Assembly: GCA_049968255.1 (NCBI GenBank)
Contig: JBMFRB010000002.1
Coordinates: forward strand, 128,001 to 192,000
From: Candidatus Sumerlaeaceae bacterium
Lineage (GTDB): Bacteria > Sumerlaeota > Sumerlaeia > Sumerlaeales > Sumerlaeaceae
DNA length: 64,000 bases
Direction of reading: 5' to 3'
Part shown: piece by piece, positions 35,162 through 41,055 of the stretch
Position numbering within the stretch: position 1 is the stretch's first letter
Layout of the letters: every line of letters begins with the position of its first letter
Made by a program: the position numbers and the translations under genes
Notes under the pieces: model-generated
What the model was told of the DNA's origin: nothing
What the model saw: the letters and a program-made list of their open reading frames with translations, nothing else
Database searches by the model: none

Positions 35162-36748
35162 CTAAGCTTTCCCTAAGATGGCGATTAGTTGTTCGGGCGT
35201 GTGAGCGTCTACAAAGTCGCGGAACGATTCACCATTTTGGGCCCATGCTTCGAACGCTTTACACAGACGAACCAGGGTTGGAGCCAAGGCCGACGCTGGC
35301 ACCTTGCGCATAATAGTCTCAGCAAATCGGGGCTGCGCGCCGGTTCCACCGCCGAGTTGGATGTCGTAAACCTCCACGGGTTGACCTTCAACTTTGGTCA
35401 GGCCGCCGCGCAACCCAATGTCGGCGATGGCAGTCTGGCCGCAGTTATTGGGGCAGCCACTTATGTGGATCCTCAACTTCCGGTGAAAGTTTGGCAAGGC
35501 TTCCTCAAGCTTACGCGAGAGTTCGATGGATAAAGCTTTAGTCTCAGTGATGGCGAGGTTGCAGAACTCGGTTCCGGTGCAGGCTACCATATAGCGCCGG
35601 AAGCTACTTGGTCGAGGAGAAAATCCCAGCGCCTCGAGGTCATGAACAACATGGGGGATGTTGTCTTTGGGAATATGCGTAATAATGAAATTTTGCTTAT
35701 TTGTGTTGCGAAGAGTGGCGTGAGTCGAGTACTGGTCCACAATGTCCGCCAGGCGCAGGAGTCTATCAGCTGAAGTCCGGCCCGACGTGACACCCACTCC
35801 AACGTAGTAGAGGCCGTCCTGTTTTTGCGGATGAATGCCGAGATGATCGTCTTCTGTGTCGGCAGGTGGGGGCGGCGCGGTGTAACGTTCGAGCTGGTAG
35901 CCAAGCTTATTTTCCAAAAGGCGCAAAAAACCTTCCGCACCGATGCCTATTTTCGGATCGTGGATTAGGAACTTGAGTCGAGCTTTTCCACGATCTTCGC
36001 GCAGCACGTCGCTATCACGGAAAATCGTAGTGATTTCGCGCACGACGTCAAAAACTTGATCGTAAGAGAGAAACACATTGAGATCAGCGGCAAAATAGGG
36101 GCGTGTTGACAGCCCGCCACCCACCATGAGGCCAAAACCGAACTCGTAGCGATTGCCAACTTTCCGCTCGATGCCATATAATCCTACGTCGTTAATCTGC
36201 GGTTGGGCGCATCTCTGTCGGCACCCTGCGATCGAAATTTTGTACTTACGGGGGAGATTGGAAAACTCTTTGTTGCCCGTGAGGTAGGTGCTGATGCGCT
36301 TCACCAAGGGGCTTGCGTCGCAGATCTCCGTGCCGTCGATCCCTGCAATAGGGCAGCCGACAACGTTACGGGTCACGTCGCCGCATGCACCAACGGTGTG
36401 CAGTCCCACTCGTTGCAGCCGGTGGAAGATCTCGGGCACATTCTCGATCCGGATCCAGTGAAGTTGGTAGTTTTGGCGTGTCGTGATATCAACTAACCCT
36501 CTTCCGAACTCCTGGGCGATGGCGGCTACCTCGCGGACCTGATTTGCCAACAGATCGCCGTTGGGAATCTTGACCCGAAGCATGAAATAACCATTTTTGG
36601 GTTTTTGCTGATACAATCCATACCACCGGAAGAGATCGACGTACTCGCGATCCATTTTCTCGAACCCAGCCGCGGCGGCTCGAATGATATCTTCCAAAAC
36701 GTCCAAGCCGTCCTTCTGTCTTTTTAGGTGTTCAACAGTCGTAGCCAT
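35162..36748 (-). CDS. Ferredoxin-type nitrite/sulfite reductase (siroheme-[4Fe-4S])
   Basis: TTRQNYQLH, CGDVTRN, NLPRKYK, ACTGTEFC and SGCPNNCG cluster ligands. Confidence 0.92.
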   Translation of the reverse strand: MATTVEHLKRQKDGLDVLEDIIRAAAAGFEKMDREYVDLFRWYGLYQQKPKNGYFMLRVKIPNGDLLANQVREVAAIAQEFGRGLVDITTRQNYQLHWIRIENVPEIFHRLQRVGLHTVGACGDVTRNVVGCPIAGIDGTEICDASPLVKRISTYLTGNKEFSNLPRKYKISIAGCRQRCAQPQINDVGLYGIERKVGNRYEFGFGLMVGGGLSTRPYFAADLNVFLSYDQVFDVVREITTIFRDSDVLREDRGKARLKFLIHDPKIGIGAEGFLRLLENKLGYQLERYTAPPPPADTEDDHLGIHPQKQDGLYYVGVGVTSGRTSADRLLRLADIVDQYSTHATLRNTNKQNFIITHIPKDNIPHVVHDLEALGFSPRPSSFRRYMVACTGTEFCNLAITETKALSIELSRKLEEALPNFHRKLRIHISGCPNNCGQTAIADIGLRGGLTKVEGQPVEVYDIQLGGGTGAQPRFAETIMRKVPASALAPTLVRLCKAFEAWAQNGESFRDFVDAHTPEQLIAILGKA

Positions 36749-36942: not shown

Positions 36943-38661
36943 TCACTTCACATATTCGCTAATCACGCTGCGGACAATTGGGTTGCGTGCCAGGGCCTCG
37001 GAAGCCTCCGAATACGAGAAACGTCCCGTAGCCAACAGAAGGGCTTTGGGTACAACCTTTTCCACATTTTTGGCGATCTCAATACACAAGCTAATGGAAG
37101 CTTCCCGCTGCGCCTCTGTTAGCTCATCTGTTTGGAAAATGGACTTCAGCAGAGCTTCCAAAGCTTCCTCCGCGGACACCCCCATAAGGTCCGTGATGAT
37201 CGAAATTGTCCGATGAAAAAGTTTATTATTGGAAATACGCAGGTCAACCATGCGGTTTCCAAAAACTTTCCCCGCCAAAATATGCCCACCAGTCGTCGTT
37301 GCGTTCAGCACAAGCTTAATGGCCATTTCGAGAGGAGCGACGCCGAGGTGTGGATGAACGGAAATTGGTAAGTTTACCACGATGTCCGCTTCGGGTGGCT
37401 CCCCGCTCCAGTGAAGGCCAGCCATATGTGCACCACTGCGGCGAATGTCTTCAAGTAGATTGTGACTATCGGCGGGCTTACCTATGAAAATGCAAAGATC
37501 ATCCTCTTTGAGCTTCGGGAGTTTGTTCCGTCGAAAATCATCAAGCGAAACCTGGTAATGAGCGGCTCGCGAAGACAAATCGACCGACCCATCGGGGAAG
37601 AGGCATCTCCAACCACTTTCAACGAAGCCGCGCACGTCTTCGAAATCTGCTCCGAAGGTCGGGGGGCACTCGGATGCATCAATTAGGCCTAAAATTCCTC
37701 CATCTACCGCTGCGTACTCACCCGCATTGAGCCGCATCCGTCCTGCATTCCCGAGGTAGTAGATGTGGCATTTCTTGCGGAGTGCGTTTCCGCCCCACGC
37801 GATGAGCTGTGCGATTTTGTCAGCTTCTAAATAGGTTGTACGATATGCAGTTTCGTATTCCCGCAGGCACTGCAACACATACGCATCGAGGTCCTCTTCG
37901 TGCAGACCGCCTTTTAGCAGCTGGAATGCGCTAGAGAAAACAATTTCCAACACAATCTTTGTCGCAGTGCCGCTTTTCATGCGGGTGGAGCCCGTGATGG
38001 GCTCGGGGCCAACGATGGGATTCAGAATGGTGCCGTTTGGTGCCCCTGCCACCTTTTCTGCCGTAGCCTTGAACGAAAATGGCCAACCTTCCACCGGTGT
38101 TGAGCGGGCTAAGTCGACTGGATTGAAACCAACGAGTACGGCATGCCAGTTTCGGGTTTCGAGCGCGAGTTCAAGTTGACCCGCAATGTAGGGTGCGCTG
38201 AAACCGCACGTGATCCCAAAATAAAGCACGCGTGGCGCACCCTGCGCTAATTGTCTCAGTTCTTGTTGCGCTTTGTAAGGATCGTCTTCAGCTCCCTCTT
38301 GCGCTTGAATAAGTGCGGGTGGGCCGCCAGCAATCAGGAAGCGGAAAGGTTCGTAGCCAAGCGCACGCCATGCCGTGTTGAACTCGCGTGCAAGAAACAT
38401 CGCAAGGCGCCCACTCGTCCCGGCCCCACTCAAGACAATCACATTTTTCTGATCAGAGCAAAAGTCACGCACGAGCTTTGCGCTGCGCGCCATAGCGTCG
38501 ATGCAAGGCCGATCGTAGAAGCCGGCATAAGTACTGTAGCCTGCAAAAATCTGGGCGTCGGTTTGCCTAAGCAGCCGCACAATCCCGACGGGCGGAGCTA
38601 AATCAATATCAGTCGTCAATGGATTTGGTGTCTCTGTGAGCGACCGCAGTTTGCGCTCCAT
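36943..38661 (-). CDS. Glucokinase-regulatory-protein-like double-SIS protein (MurQ/GKRP family)
   Basis: TETPNPLTTDID, SGAGTSGRLA, EGAED, GITCGFSAPYIAGQ, GFNP, GPEPITGSTRMKSGTATK, DASECPPTFGADFEDVRGF and KVFGNRMVDLRISNNKL. Likely start ATG 38661 after a purine-rich RBS. Confidence 0.85.
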   Translation of the reverse strand: MERKLRSLTETPNPLTTDIDLAPPVGIVRLLRQTDAQIFAGYSTYAGFYDRPCIDAMARSAKLVRDFCSDQKNVIVLSGAGTSGRLAMFLAREFNTAWRALGYEPFRFLIAGGPPALIQAQEGAEDDPYKAQQELRQLAQGAPRVLYFGITCGFSAPYIAGQLELALETRNWHAVLVGFNPVDLARSTPVEGWPFSFKATAEKVAGAPNGTILNPIVGPEPITGSTRMKSGTATKIVLEIVFSSAFQLLKGGLHEEDLDAYVLQCLREYETAYRTTYLEADKIAQLIAWGGNALRKKCHIYYLGNAGRMRLNAGEYAAVDGGILGLIDASECPPTFGADFEDVRGFVESGWRCLFPDGSVDLSSRAAHYQVSLDDFRRNKLPKLKEDDLCIFIGKPADSHNLLEDIRRSGAHMAGLHWSGEPPEADIVVNLPISVHPHLGVAPLEMAIKLVLNATTTGGHILAGKVFGNRMVDLRISNNKLFHRTISIITDLMGVSAEEALEALLKSIFQTDELTEAQREASISLCIEIAKNVEKVVPKALLLATGRFSYSEASEALARNPIVRSVISEYVK

Positions 38662-38771
38662 TTTACCCTTTCCCCTTCCCATTTTTTGGCAAGTCGTCGC
38701 TTGGAAGTGCGCCAGCAAACGTCTCTTTTCCCAAGCTGCGGGCTCCAACCGTGCGCGCTCAGAAACGTCTT

Positions 38772-39824
38772 TCAACGAAGAAAAACAGGGACAGATACAT
38801 CGCTCCAATACGTGCCATCTTCTCTTACGGGGGCGATAGCTAGTGCAAAGACGTTGGATTCATCTGGTGTCGTGCTCCAAAAGCGAGCGCCAGCCCGTGC
38901 TCCAGCGAAGCTAATGGTGCTGACAAAATTCCCATTCTTGTCGACGGCAATTTTTTGAGCCCAGACCGGCACTCCACCATCTGGCGGCATTAGGTACACG
39001 ACAATTTGCCGGCAACTGCGCGAGACCTTTCCCGCGAGAACATAGATGGCGTCGCACCTGAGTTTCACGGAAATGAGAGAGCTTTGCGTGACATGAATAG
39101 CATTCGTAGTAAACACCTGATGAGGGAAGGGTGAATCACCCGGAAAGCTGTAGGCACTCTCGAGAGCATTCTGAGAGAAGTACTCCTTTCCTTCCTCCGG
39201 CACACCGTCTGGGCAATCTACGAACCTCGCAGGAAGTGATTGTCCTACGGCATTCTGCACCTGGAAATGTAAATGCGGTTTAGTGGAGTAGCCAGTGTTG
39301 CCGCTTTTGGCGATCGGCTGCCCGCGACACACGATGTCGCCTTCCCGCACGAGTGCCGAGTGGGCCTTTAGATGCAAATACTGGCTAAAAATGCCATGGC
39401 CGTGATCAATGATGATTCGATTAGCTCGGGTGCGCCCTTTTGGATCAAACGTCGGAGCAGTGTAACTTTGCTGAACGCACACCACTCGACCGCCCGCTGC
39501 GGCACAAACGGTTTCTCCCTCCGGTAAGTCAAAATCCCAAGCGTAGTGATTGAAGCCATAATGGCTGAAGCGCCCACCAAAACCCTGAATCACACGAAAT
39601 GCTTTTCCTTTCTCGTACGGTAGGCAAAACATGATCCCACTAGTAGCGACGTCGCACAGGTCAGTTGAAGCCACGTCGGCATCTTGCGCTCCTGCCCAAG
39701 GCGCGTAGCTCCACACGACCACAAGAAGCCAGGTCTGGATCACGCGCACGCAAGGACGTTTGTTACGCCAAAATTTGCAGAGAAAAGCCTTTGTCATTAT
39801 CTGTCCTAGGATACCAAAGCCCAC
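38772..39824 (-). CDS. Exported M23-family metallopeptidase
   Basis: H...HYAWDF, AAAGGRV, IDHGHG..SQYLHL and SGNTGYSTKPHLHF; signal-like N-terminus. Confidence 0.88.
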   Translation of the reverse strand: MGFGILGQIMTKAFLCKFWRNKRPCVRVIQTWLLVVVWSYAPWAGAQDADVASTDLCDVATSGIMFCLPYEKGKAFRVIQGFGGRFSHYGFNHYAWDFDLPEGETVCAAAGGRVVCVQQSYTAPTFDPKGRTRANRIIIDHGHGIFSQYLHLKAHSALVREGDIVCRGQPIAKSGNTGYSTKPHLHFQVQNAVGQSLPARFVDCPDGVPEEGKEYFSQNALESAYSFPGDSPFPHQVFTTNAIHVTQSSLISVKLRCDAIYVLAGKVSRSCRQIVVYLMPPDGGVPVWAQKIAVDKNGNFVSTISFAGARAGARFWSTTPDESNVFALAIAPVREDGTYWSDVSVPVFLR

Positions 39825-39996: not shown

Positions 39997-41055
39997 ATGT
40001 TTACGCAAATTCTATCGCAACCCGAAGTTGTGGCCGTTGCTGTCAGTGCAAGTGTTTGCTACGTTGCTACCTGGATTGTCCGGGGAGCCATGTGGCGTTT
40101 GGGCGTTCTGGACATCCCCACTGGCGAGCGAAAGCGCCATCGCTACCCTGTGCCTTATGAAGGGGGCGTTGCCATGTATCTGGGGTTCATCTCCGGCCTT
40201 GTTTCGTACGCACTCATGGATTGCTCGGCGCTATTGTGGTACGACGTCGCTAAAGCCCTTGTCATTGGCGCCACAGCCAGCACTGCGATTGGGGTGATTG
40301 ACGATGTCCTGGATCTTCGCCCGTGGGCTAAGTTTATTGCCCAGCTCTTCATTGGAGTGCTTATGTATCATTTCGGCTTCCGGATCGAACGGATCAGCAA
40401 TCCCTTCGGCAACGAAGTCAGTGTCATGGGTGGAGTGAGTTTGCTTGGGACGGTGCTGTGGTACGCGCTTCTTATGAATGGGATAAATATGATAGATGGA
40501 GTTGATGGCTTAGCGGCTGGCATCGTGGCAATCTCAGGCGCGACGCTTGGTCTTATTGCGCTGGATCTTCAACAACCCGTGGCAGCAGTGGTTGCGTTCA
40601 TTTTGAGCGCCGTCTGCCTTGGGTTTCTTCCTCACAATTTTTATCCCGCGCGAATTTTCATGGGTGATGCTGGCAGCTTGTTGCTTGGCTTTCTTCTGGC
40701 TTCCCTCACTCTCATGTCGAGCAGTAAAACGCCAGCGGTCCTCACACTGGCGGTCCCAATTGTAGCCGTCTGCCTTCCGCTTTTTGAGACGCTCTTTGCT
40801 TTTGCTCGACGGGTGGCAAAGGGCCAGCATCCTTTCAAAGGAGATCGCAGCCACCTGCATCACCGGTTTTTGGATTTGGGATTTACCGAGCGCCGCACTG
40901 TCCTTATTCTCTACTATCTCACGGCCTACGTCGGCGTCATTGCCTACGTGTTGCAAAAACTCGATTCGCGTCTGACTCTGCTCATGGCCTTTTTCCTTGG
41001 GCTGGGTCTCTATCTGCTCGCGGAGAGCTTGGCGTTTCTGCGGCGCCGCAGTTAG
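39997..41055 (+). CDS. WecA/TagO-like undecaprenyl-phosphate GlcNAc-1-phosphate transferase (MraY family)
   Basis: RKRH..PVP..GG, GVIDD, NMIDGVDGLA, IFMGDAGS and DRSHLHH. Confidence 0.92.
   Translation: MFTQILSQPEVVAVAVSASVCYVATWIVRGAMWRLGVLDIPTGERKRHRYPVPYEGGVAMYLGFISGLVSYALMDCSALLWYDVAKALVIGATASTAIGVIDDVLDLRPWAKFIAQLFIGVLMYHFGFRIERISNPFGNEVSVMGGVSLLGTVLWYALLMNGINMIDGVDGLAAGIVAISGATLGLIALDLQQPVAAVVAFILSAVCLGFLPHNFYPARIFMGDAGSLLLGFLLASLTLMSSSKTPAVLTLAVPIVAVCLPLFETLFAFARRVAKGQHPFKGDRSHLHHRFLDLGFTERRTVLILYYLTAYVGVIAYVLQKLDSRLTLLMAFFLGLGLYLLAESLAFLRRRS

What the first reader, a model, noticed from the sequence alone, without database searches (positions are those of the whole stretch)
36943..38661. 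Full-length bacterial homologue of vertebrate glucokinase regulatory protein retaining MurQ catalytic motifs
Seen: about 570 aa, twice the size of MurQ, with two SIS halves. It has TETPNPLTTDID..IVRLLRQTDAQIF, VLSGAGTSGRLA, LIAGG..EGAED, SAPYIAGQ, VLVGFNPVDLAR..PVEGW..F, LNPIVGPE..GSTRMK..ATKIVLE, TFGADFEDVRGF, DLRISNNKLF.R and ALLKSI…ASIS…VVPKALL. Established, recalled rather than aligned: human GKRP has the same ordered motifs (TEKSNPLTQDLD..IVRLLGQCDAEIF, SGGGTSGRMA, EGTED, VLVGFNPVSMAR..PIEDW, TFGADFRDVRGF, DLRISNSKLF), including segments absent from ~300-aa MurQ. Here the MurQ signature DASECPPTFG lies in the second SIS half and EGAED in the first. Inference: a single-chain pseudo-dimer keeping one composite sugar-phosphate site with both MurQ-type glutamates. 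It could be an enzymatically active relative of the ancestor of GKRP, or a bacterial sugar-phosphate-sensing kinase regulator.
Basis: partly seen in the sequence, partly recalled or inferred. Interest (0 to 1): 0.85.

Follow-up and report, generated by a model that had tools for sequence, protein, structure and literature searches.

The report
Bacterial GKRP-shaped MurNAc-6-phosphate etherase
This bacterial gene encodes a full-length look-alike of the animal glucokinase regulatory protein that most likely still does the ancestral job of splitting a cell-wall sugar, and it belongs to a large, undescribed bacterial family that bears on where the animal regulator came from.

Summary
The minus-strand ORF 36943-38661 encodes 572 aa. 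It aligns end to end with human, rat and Xenopus GKRP (E about 1e-95) and hits all three GKRP Pfam domains. Its AlphaFold model superposes on GKRP crystal structures at TM 0.84-0.89. SIS1 keeps the phosphate loop and EGAED, SIS2 keeps DASECPPTFG, and the lid keeps its lysine and arginine. Twelve of 19 published human ligand-contact residues are identical.

It is most likely an active single-chain MurNAc-6-phosphate etherase. The genome has AnmK, NagA, a NagB-like gene and two GH3 genes, but no separate murQ. Across 75 genomes of its phylum, 49 carry the long form, 13 carry a bona fide short MurQ, and none carries both. Of 33 genomes with AnmK, 32 have one or the other.

A kinase-regulator role is not supported. 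The vertebrate N-terminal extension and the glucokinase-contact region are missing, and no hexokinase-family gene was found.

The protein is not rare: 417 clusters at 50% identity score E<=1e-30, eukaryotic ones included. I found no paper describing bacterial members. Bacterial and eukaryotic forms separate on the tree, but rooting with MurQ is uninformative, so the direction of transfer stays open.

The parts
36943..38661 (-). CDS of the 572-aa GKRP-architecture protein P0001 (stop codon 36943-36945)
38666..38680 (-). Purine-rich run (GGGAAGGGGAAAGGG), a likely ribosome-binding region 5 nt upstream of the ATG at 38661; an alternative ATG lies at 38680-38682
   Evidence: sequence read directly; the start is supported by the homologue N-termini
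37927..38661 (-). Residues 1-245: N-terminal helix plus the SIS1 domain, which aligns with MurQ residues about 1-217
38407..38427 (-). GAGTSGR phosphate-binding loop (T82 and S83 match human GKRP T109 and S110)
   Evidence: (120 of 120); PMC4109836 Fig. 1 legend
38284..38298 (-). EGAED motif of SIS1 (E122 and E125; E125 matches human ligand-contact E153)
   Evidence: (EGxED in 119 of 120)
37975..37992 (-). GSTRMK motif of SIS1 (G224, T226 and R227 match human G256, S258 and R259)
37327..37926 (-). Residues 246-445: helical linker plus the SIS2 domain, the module that MurQ lacks. It is itself MurQ-like: TIGR00274 positions 67-255 match residues 320-507
37651..37680 (-). DASECPPTFG motif of SIS2 (E331 matches human E348; P334 stands where human has H351)
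   Evidence: (117 of 120)
36946..37326 (-). Residues 446-572: C-terminal lid domain (Pfam PF20741, 469-567)
37210..37257 (-). Lid motif NRMVDLRISNNKLFHR (N478, K480, L481 and R484 match human N512, K514, L515 and R518)
38772..39824 (-). Context only: upstream same-strand gene for an M23 peptidase (a peptidoglycan endopeptidase family). It is a conserved neighbour in 5 of the 23 loci compared, the window's among them; 4 of the 5 lie in the window's own family, L009 and L010 carry no family code
35162..36748 (-). Context only: downstream same-strand gene for a nitrite/sulfite reductase (NIR_SIR); a lineage-specific neighbour with no functional link inferred

Best explanation
[quoted passage not shown] The chain is a MurQ-like SIS domain, a second truncated MurQ-like SIS domain and the MurQ C-terminal helices used as a lid, the same architecture as animal GKRP.

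Only one of the two ancestral active sites survives. It is composite. SIS1 gives the phosphate loop (T82, S83), E122/E125 and G224/T226/R227. SIS2 gives E331 of DASECPPTFG. The lid gives N478, K480 and R484.

In the cell it would take the MurNAc-6-P made by AnmK from recycled or scavenged anhydro-muropeptides and cleave the lactyl ether, giving GlcNAc-6-P and D-lactate. NagA and a NagB-like enzyme then carry the product into central metabolism. In this lineage it stands in for the missing short MurQ.

Shown here: the architecture, motif conservation, gene content and phyletic pattern. Inferred: the catalysis, the substrate and a monomeric state.
For: (1) Architecture and fold. There is an end-to-end alignment to GKRPs and three GKRP Pfam domains. 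The AF2 model has mean pLDDT 88.5 and pTM 0.90. It matches Xenopus and human GKRP structures at query-normalised TM 0.84-0.89 over about 590 columns, against 0.35-0.38 for single MurQ chains.

(2) Both halves are MurQ-like. NCBIfam MurQ subfamily NF003915 scores 172 bits against a cut-off of 168. TIGR00274 matches residues 320-507.

(3) Site conservation. Of the 19 human GKRP residues listed as F1P/F6P contacts (PMC4109836 Fig. 1 legend), 12 are identical in P0001, 4 are conservative and 3 differ, mapped through the alignment. Among the 120 best hits, the motifs occur as follows: G[AC]GTSGR in 120, EGxED in 119, GS[ST]RMK in 118, DASECPPT[FY]G in 117, and the lid NxKL motif in 116.

(4) The pathway has a gap that only this gene fills. 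The genome has AnmK (E 1.4e-90), NagA over its cut-off, a Glucosamine_iso protein and two GH3 genes. The MurQ model hits only the two halves of this ORF plus weak generic SIS matches.

(5) Phyletic complementarity in 75 genomes of the phylum. The long form is in 49. A short MurQ over the family cut-off is in 13. None has both. In all 49 long-form genomes, every TIGR00274 hit at E<=1e-10 lies inside the long-form ORF (checked against the coordinates).

(6) AnmK is in 33 of the 75 genomes. Thirty of these have the long form, 2 have the short MurQ, and 1 (89% complete) has neither.

(7) Published biochemistry on relatives. The Naegleria GKRP homologue, lancelet GKRP and resurrected pre-mammalian GKRPs are active MurNAc-6-P etherases (bioRxiv 10.64898/2026.05.08.723886, Introduction and Results read).
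Against: There is no biochemical test. Genomic context gives no operon link: the neighbours differ between families. They are an M23 peptidase and a sulfite reductase in the window's family, and the adk-rpsM-rpsK-rpsD-rpoA-rplQ block in another family. AnmK lies on another contig.

Nineteen of the 49 long-form genomes lack AnmK, so another source of MurNAc-6-P, or another substrate, must be assumed there.

The TIGR00274 equivalog score (157 bits) is far below its cut-off of 302. That is expected for a split match, but membership is formally not met.

The DASECPPT loop is the least confident part of the model (pLDDT below 50 at 332-334). I could not measure distances in the model because no coordinates were available.

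Which MurQ glutamates are catalytic is recalled (Hadi et al. 2008), not taken from any call. The phylum genomes are related, so the counts are not independent.
Confidence: 0.8

Rival explanations
1. It is an enzyme of the MurQ/GKRP fold that acts on a different phosphosugar (another 3-O-substituted or unsubstituted hexosamine or ketose phosphate), or acts as an isomerase rather than as the MurNAc-6-P etherase.
For: Nineteen of the 49 long-form genomes have no AnmK. No conserved cell-wall-recycling operon surrounds the gene. The GKRP site is known to accept several phosphosugars: F6P, S6P and F1P inhibit or bind (text). Three of the 19 contact positions differ from human GKRP.
Against: The motifs that differ from mammals revert to the MurQ state (CPPT, EGAED, GSTRMK). 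Distribution with short MurQ is strictly exclusive, with 0 of 75 genomes holding both. Thirty-two of 33 AnmK genomes carry one of the two forms. Eukaryotic members of the same architecture that were assayed use MurNAc-6-P.
Confidence: 0.12
2. It is a sugar-phosphate-sensing regulator that binds and inhibits a sugar kinase, as vertebrate GKRP does with glucokinase.
For: It shares the overall fold and the sugar-phosphate site with GKRP. Enzymatic activity and glucokinase binding are not mutually exclusive in reconstructed gnathostome GKRP (text).
Against: [quoted passage not shown] GK-contact D413 aligns to A397 (PMC4109836).

The roughly 22-residue N-terminal extension of vertebrates is absent. 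No hexokinase-family (PF00349) gene was found in this 95.75%-complete genome. No kinase gene is a conserved neighbour.
Confidence: 0.03
3. It is a decaying or non-functional relic, or the contig is eukaryotic contamination, so the gene says nothing about bacterial biology.
For: None beyond the general possibility. The genome is a draft of 31 contigs.
Against: The reading frame is intact and site residues are invariant across 20 divergent homologues. In the phylum, 49 of 75 genomes hold a full-length copy, and similarity falls off with kinship: 79% identity in the same genus, 49-62% in the same family, and 41-54% beyond. The flanking genes are bacterial: an M23 peptidase, NIR_SIR, GT4, and in relatives the ribosomal-protein and rpoA block. 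Contamination is 0.23%.
Confidence: 0.02

Closest known systems
Vertebrate glucokinase regulatory protein (GKRP/GCKR; PDB 4BB9, 4LY9, 3W0L, 4LC9)
   Same: Same domain order (SIS1, linker, SIS2, lid) and collinear over about 560 residues. Identity to fish, shark and amphibian GKRPs is 36-38%. TM is 0.84-0.89. The composite sugar-phosphate site is in the same place, with 12 of 19 contact residues identical.
   Different: P0001 has no N-terminal extension. The GK-contact region before the lid is shorter and unrelated, and D413 aligns to A397. It carries the MurQ-type CPPT in place of the mammalian CIHT (H351 becomes P334), and EGAED rather than EGTED or QExxED. The host has no hexokinase-family kinase. 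GK regulation is therefore not expected.
Eukaryotic GKRP-like etherases (the Naegleria gruberi homologue and lancelet GKRP, both reported as active MurNAc-6-P etherases)
   Same: Same fused architecture, retained catalytic-type motifs and no GK inhibition. This is the closest functional analogue (PMC7052976 section 11).
   Different: Those proteins are thought to digest the cell walls of bacterial prey. Here the host is itself a bacterium with AnmK, NagA and NagB, so the role would be recycling or scavenging of murein. The bacterial sequences sit on the other side of the main split of the family tree from the named eukaryotes. I had no labelled Naegleria sequence to compare directly.
Bacterial MurQ (about 300 aa, homodimer; PDB 4LZJ, 4M0D, 4S12, 1NRI)
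   Same: Same chemistry is expected. The P-loop, DA[SV]E..PT[FY]G, EG[AV]ED and GSTRMK motifs and the C-terminal helices are shared. It fills the same slot in the pathway and is mutually exclusive with the long form in genomes.
   Different: MurQ carries all motifs on one 300-aa chain and forms two sites per dimer. P0001 spreads them over two non-identical SIS domains of a single chain and keeps one site. Extra segments at 184-202, 235-448 and 509-534 are absent from MurQ. phmmer gives only E 1e-17 to 1e-23 against MurQ structures.

Membership tests
GKRP structural family (Pfam GKRP_SIS_N / GKRP_SIS_2 / GKRP-like_C) | All three domains are present, in order, above the curated cut-offs | tested here: met
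   117.4, 61.8 and 108.6 bits against cut-offs of 27, 27 and 27.7. TM 0.84-0.89 to GKRP crystal structures.
GKRP structural family | Segments absent from about 300-aa MurQ but shared with GKRP (the insert in SIS1, the whole SIS2 module and the insert in the lid) | tested here: met
   MurQ aligns only to residues 1-45, 54-183, 203-234, 449-508 and 535-572. Searches show the other segments aligned to GKRPs.
GKRP as a glucokinase regulator (functional family, jawed vertebrates) | A GK-binding surface in SIS2, including the loop inserted in the gnathostome ancestor and contacts D413 and Q443 | tested here: not met
   the region is about 15 residues shorter than in human, is not conserved, and D413 aligns to A397. 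The features are taken from passages of 10.64898/2026.05.05.723016 and PMC4109836. The exact six residues of the insertion are not given in the passages I saw.
GKRP as a glucokinase regulator | The N-terminal extension (human residues 1-30) that couples ligand binding to GK binding | tested here: not met
   P0001 residue 8 aligns to human residue 30 (chain index 41 minus an 11-residue tag); the extension is present in shark, sturgeon and axolotl, and absent in bacteria, Amoebozoa, sponge, scallop and amphioxus.
GKRP as a glucokinase regulator | A partner hexokinase-family glucokinase in the same organism | tested here: not met
   there is no PF00349 match at E<=0.001 in the 95.75%-complete genome. 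Other kinase families were not searched.
GKRP as a glucokinase regulator | His351, which is linked to the fructose-phosphate response (its replacement by Pro in Xenopus is said to explain insensitivity) | tested here: not met
   H351 aligns to P334. PMC4109836 passage.
MurQ-type MurNAc-6-P etherase | A match to curated MurQ models | tested here: inconclusive
   NF003915 (subfamily) scores 172 bits against a cut-off of 168, which is met. NF009222 scores 160 against 255 and TIGR00274 (equivalog) 157 against 302, which are not met. The match is split over the two halves.
MurQ-type MurNAc-6-P etherase | The phosphate loop plus the two acidic motifs (DASE..PT and EGAED) that hold the catalytic glutamates. 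Their catalytic role is recalled from Hadi et al. 2008 and was not seen in any call. | tested here: met
   all are present and nearly invariant, but they are divided between SIS1 (P-loop, EGAED) and SIS2 (DASE).
MurQ-type MurNAc-6-P etherase | A chain of about 300 aa that acts as a homodimer with two sites | tested here: not met
   the protein is 572 aa with two unequal SIS domains in one chain, and the SIS2 P-loop is degenerate. The oligomeric state was not tested.
MurQ-type MurNAc-6-P etherase | It occurs with enzymes that make MurNAc-6-P and use GlcNAc-6-P, and it is the only etherase candidate | tested here: met
   (own genome). (75 genomes: 49 long form, 13 short, 0 both; 32 of 33 AnmK genomes have one of the two).
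MurQ-type MurNAc-6-P etherase | Catalysis of MurNAc-6-P to GlcNAc-6-P plus D-lactate | not testable with these tools
   This needs an enzyme assay.

The most novel reading that the evidence does not exclude
The two-SIS-plus-lid 'GKRP' architecture was invented in bacteria, by duplication and unequal fusion of murQ in a Sumerlaeota-like lineage where it replaced MurQ. Eukaryotes then received the gene already fused. Under this reading the animal glucose-sensing regulator descends from a bacterial single-chain etherase, not from a fusion made in eukaryotes. Bacterial long forms such as this one would be the best living proxies for the pre-eukaryotic ancestor.
Probability: 0.5. Interest if true: 0.65.

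Novelty: new member of a known kind. Interest (0 to 1): 0.5.

Why it matters
GKRP is a textbook case of an enzyme turned regulator and is a drug target in diabetes. Its evolution is under active study: two 2026 preprints reconstruct ancestors and use E. coli MurQ as the bacterial benchmark.

[quoted passage not shown] A large, slowly evolving bacterial family with the complete GKRP architecture changes that picture. It is 36-40% identical to animal GKRPs.

It matters in four ways. It offers far closer outgroups for ancestral reconstruction. It raises the testable possibility that the fusion pre-dates eukaryotes. It supplies a soluble bacterial model of the fold. For microbiology, it fills an apparent murQ gap in the peptidoglycan-recycling pathway of Sumerlaeota-like bacteria and some Phycisphaerae.

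It is not a new kind of molecule, and databases already tag these proteins with GKRP-named domains.

Tried and rejected
Direction of transfer.
- A FastTree of 116 of the 151 cluster representatives (those of 520-720 aa; 35 shorter or longer rows dropped) left the base of the family unresolved.
- So did an IQ-TREE 'quick' tree of 106 hand-picked long forms plus 12 of 16 extracted MurQ.
- treekit's AU test of 'named eukaryotes are one clade' ran through. Its constrained search finished with a better likelihood than the free quick tree (-103144.86 against -103178.54). The AU step itself never finished within the 300-s limit, so no p-value came from it.
- I replaced it with my own IQ-TREE scan of 21 outgroup positions under the simpler LG+F+G4 model. 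All 21 lie within 6.4 lnL units and 20 of 21 have p-AU >= 0.105. The root is therefore not recoverable with MurQ as outgroup.
- Eighty of the 106 ingroup rows have no organism label.

The low-complexity runs in those sequences suggest eukaryotes, but that is only an impression.

Scan of genome contigs. Only 2 long forms came back (L009, L010). I used the MurQ loci as an outgroup instead.

Neighbourhood. No neighbour is conserved across families, so no operon argument can be made.

Expression. The look-up of sequencing runs listed no RNA holder, and only one DNA row with a small share of the words.

RNA features. There is no Rfam match and no tRNA in the window.

Literature.
- Veiga-da-Cunha et al. 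2009 (Biochem J 423:323) is not held. I know it only through citing papers and from memory.
- MurQ catalytic residue numbers were sought and not found.
- Searches found no paper on bacterial two-SIS GKRP-like proteins. Subscription journals and all supplementary files were not searchable, and the supplements of the two 2026 preprints (phylogenies and alignments) may bear on this.

Full report
WHAT IS THERE. One search lists a minus-strand ORF 36943..38808. The ATG at 38661 gives a 572-aa protein, P0001. This start agrees with the N-termini of 19 aligned homologues and follows a purine-rich run at 38666-38680.

The gene sits between an M23 peptidase gene (38772-39824, same strand) and a NIR_SIR reductase gene (35162-36748, same strand). 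A family-4 glycosyltransferase gene diverges at 39997. The window is C2:128001-192000 of a 3.12-Mb draft genome of 31 contigs, 95.75% complete with 0.23% contamination. Fourteen of the 120 rows carry an organism name, and these come from MAGs labelled Candidatus Sumerlaeaceae, Sumerlaeia, Sumerlaeota, Phycisphaerae or 'bacterium'.

IS IT REALLY GKRP-LIKE? Yes.
- phmmer against PDB chains gives Xenopus GKRP E 8.3e-96, human 8.7e-95 (one stretch, query 8-565) and rat 3.8e-90. MurQ structures reach only 6e-23 to 4e-17.
- Pfam finds GKRP_SIS_N, GKRP_SIS_2 and the GKRP-like_C lid, all far above their cut-offs.
- An AlphaFold2 model built from a 20-sequence alignment has mean pLDDT 88.5 and pTM 0.90.
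- Foldseek places that model on Xenopus, human and rat GKRP at query-normalised TM 0.84-0.89 over 588-596 columns at 32-34% identity. Single MurQ chains give 0.35-0.38.
- blastp identity to named animal and amoebozoan members is 33-40% over the full length.
- In a joint alignment, short MurQ sequences cover only P0001 residues 1-45, 54-183, 203-234, 449-508 and 535-572. So the SIS1 insert, the whole second SIS module and a lid insert are GKRP-type features.
- NCBIfam shows that both halves are MurQ-like: NF003915 matches residues 7-181, and TIGR00274 positions 67-255 match residues 320-507. This is the 'duplication and uneven fusion' described for GKRP.

THE SITE. In MurQ the phosphate loop, the DA[SV]E..PT[FY]G motif, EG[AV]ED and GSTRMK all lie on one chain. 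In P0001 they are divided:
- SIS1 keeps GAGTSGR, EGAED, CGFSAPY and GSTRMK but has lost DASE.
- SIS2 keeps DASECPPTFG but has a degenerate phosphate loop (YYLGNAGRM).
- The lid keeps NRMVDLRISNNKLFHR.

PMC4109836 (Fig. 1 legend, seen as a passage) lists 19 human residues that contact F1P/F6P. I mapped them through the alignment, where chain index equals natural numbering plus 11.
- Twelve are identical: T109/T82, S110/S83, E153/E125, G181/G153, S183/S155, G256/G224, R259/R227, E348/E331, N512/N478, K514/K480, L515/L481 and R518/R484.
- Four are conservative: L178/I150, S179/T151, L182/F154 and S258/T226.
- Three differ: G107/A80, V180/C152 and H351/P334.

The last change restores the MurQ 'CPPT'. 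The same paper says a His-to-Pro change at this place explains why frog GKRP ignores fructose phosphates. Among the 120 best hits the motifs are nearly universal, present in 116 to 120 of 120. The 20-sequence alignment has them invariant at a mean column identity of 49%. That is the mark of selection on a working site.

WHAT IT DOES. The own genome encodes AnmK (303.8 bits), NagA above its curated cut-off, a Glucosamine_iso protein and two GH3 enzymes. The MurQ model TIGR00274 finds only the two halves of this ORF, plus weak matches in other SIS proteins. P0001 finds only itself.

I then examined all 75 genomes held for the phylum.
- With P0001 as query, 49 have a full-length long form, 15 have only weak partial matches and 11 have none.
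- With TIGR00274, 13 genomes have a bona fide short MurQ above the cut-off. All 13 are among the 15 weak ones, and none carries the long form.
- In each of the 49 long-form genomes every hit at E<=1e-10 falls inside the long-form ORF (compared by eye with the coordinates).
- AnmK is in 33 of the 75. Thirty of these have the long form, 2 the short MurQ, and one (89% complete) neither.

So the long form occupies exactly the place of MurQ. The caveats are that the genomes are related, 19 long-form genomes lack AnmK, and there is no conserved operon. In the window's family the neighbours are the M23 peptidase and the reductase. In another family the gene follows the adk-S13-S11-S4-rpoA-L17 block (23 loci compared, in 2 of which my ORF clustering did not recover the gene).

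Published work supports catalysis in this architecture. The Naegleria homologue, lancelet GKRP and resurrected chordate, vertebrate and gnathostome ancestors are active MurNAc-6-P etherases, and only mammalian GKRP has essentially lost the activity (10.64898/2026.05.08.723886, Introduction and first part of Results read). I put the etherase reading at 0.8.

NOT A KINASE REGULATOR. According to 10.64898/2026.05.05.723016 (passages only), GK inhibition arose in jawed vertebrates through a six-residue loop insertion. The first preprint ties allostery to the N-terminal residues 1-30.
- P0001 starts at the equivalent of human residue about 23.
- The stretch between SIS2 and the lid is about 15 residues shorter than in human and is unrelated in sequence.
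- GK-contact D413 aligns to A397.
- No hexokinase-family gene was found in the genome.

HOW COMMON, AND WHERE.
- One search scored 8000 candidates and found 5495 proteins with E<=1e-10. The best 120 are all 561-643 aa with the three GKRP domains. Where a name exists, they are called 'hypothetical protein' or 'MurNAc-6-P etherase'.
- The exhaustive search of 50%-identity representatives found 3366 proteins at E<=1e-3, 1246 at <=1e-10 and 417 at <=1e-30. The last figure includes eukaryotes.
- In a 251-genome sample of the phylum that holds the Phycisphaerae MAG of L010, only that genome has the long form. A further 139 have hits to about 300-aa MurQ-like ORFs.
- In its class, 2 of 201 sampled genomes have the long form.
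- The ESM Atlas hints at further phyla (Aminicenantota, Bdellovibrionota, Pseudomonadota, Verrucomicrobiota). These are leads only.

The form is thus dominant in the window's phylum and patchy elsewhere.

EVOLUTION. Names recovered let me label 14 eukaryotic rows (molluscs, an annelid, a brachiopod, a hemichordate, a crinoid, amphioxus, a sponge, a shark, a sturgeon, an axolotl, two dictyostelids and Pelomyxa) and 12 bacterial rows among 106 long forms.
- In the quick IQ-TREE tree rooted on 12 MurQ, all named bacteria but one fall in a 32-row clade (SH-aLRT 97). Metazoa fall in a 25-row clade (97). The base is a polytomy, and the outgroup branch is about 3 substitutions per site.
- A search that held the named eukaryotes together against named bacteria plus MurQ found a better tree than the free quick search (-103144.86 against -103178.54).
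- In that tree the root falls among bacteria-like rows, and a Sumerlaeia sequence (P0067) is sister to a 73-row clade holding all named eukaryotes.
- The constraint itself puts the outgroup on the bacterial side. A scan of 21 outgroup positions on this ingroup tree under LG+F+G4 shows them all within 6.4 lnL units. A root inside Metazoa-containing eukaryotes scores 0, the bacterial-side root 0.60, and the branch between the two groups 1.38. Twenty of the 21 have p-AU >= 0.105.

The data therefore support a fairly clean split between bacterial and eukaryotic long forms, hence few transfers, but say nothing about direction.

My prior leans slightly to a bacterial origin. The parts are bacterial, the function is bacterial, the bacterial sequences lie nearest the family consensus (a profile built almost wholly from rows of the eukaryote-holding and unlabelled clades, 23 of its 24, ranked bacterial proteins on top), and transfer into phagotrophs is the commoner route. 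The very broad and deeply diverged eukaryotic range argues the other way. I give it 0.5.

NOVELTY. The molecule type is known: fused GKRP-like etherases were characterised in a protist in 2009 and in amphioxus in 2026. Databases already model the domains. What I could not find in print is any description of bacterial members, or of their replacement of MurQ. The 2009 paper and all supplements could not be read. I class the finding as a new member of a known kind, of moderate interest, chiefly for the origin of GKRP and as a missing step in peptidoglycan recycling in these phyla.

Noticed in passing
window 37696-37749 (P0001 residues about 305-322); A1 columns about 354-390: Just upstream of the catalytic-type DASECPPT loop, the window's clade has an extra segment (NAGRMRLNAGEYAAVDGG), modelled with pLDDT below 50 at 309-316. 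In the same place some relatives (P0035, P0040, P0056, P0063) carry a longer insert rich in His, Asp and Glu that looks metal-binding. Most other homologues have no insert.
   Followed up: no
L127, L129, L130, L132, L133, L137 (loci of one family of the phylum): In this family the long-form gene lies directly downstream of the conserved adk-rpsM-rpsK-rpsD-rpoA-rplQ block. This is a housekeeping position quite unlike the window's neighbourhood.
   Followed up: partly
L139-L167 (loci from a 251-genome sample of the phylum of L010): The about 300-aa MurQ-like proteins of these genomes match the C-terminal half of the long form (query 250-505, up to 117 bits, 35-39% identity) much better than its N-terminal half. 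This may say something about which murQ lineage gave rise to the second module.
   Followed up: no
G071:C448:1380-2858 (not fetched as a locus): A 607-aa ORF in a family that otherwise lacks both forms gives only weak MurQ and long-form matches (80 and 48 bits to TIGR00274; E 1.3e-6 to P0001). It may be a strongly diverged long form.
   Followed up: no
window 38772-39824 (-): In the upstream M23 peptidase, only residues 92-191 match Pfam. The C-terminal 160 residues or so have no family match. The mechanical TTG-start version of the GKRP-like ORF would overlap the peptidase's 3' end by 37 bases.
   Followed up: no
G023:C57:10234-11385: The AnmK match in one related genome contains an in-frame TAG, while two genomes of the same genus have intact copies.
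   Followed up: no
window 1-64000: There is no tRNA gene and no Rfam family at gathering threshold anywhere in the 64-kb window.
   Followed up: yes
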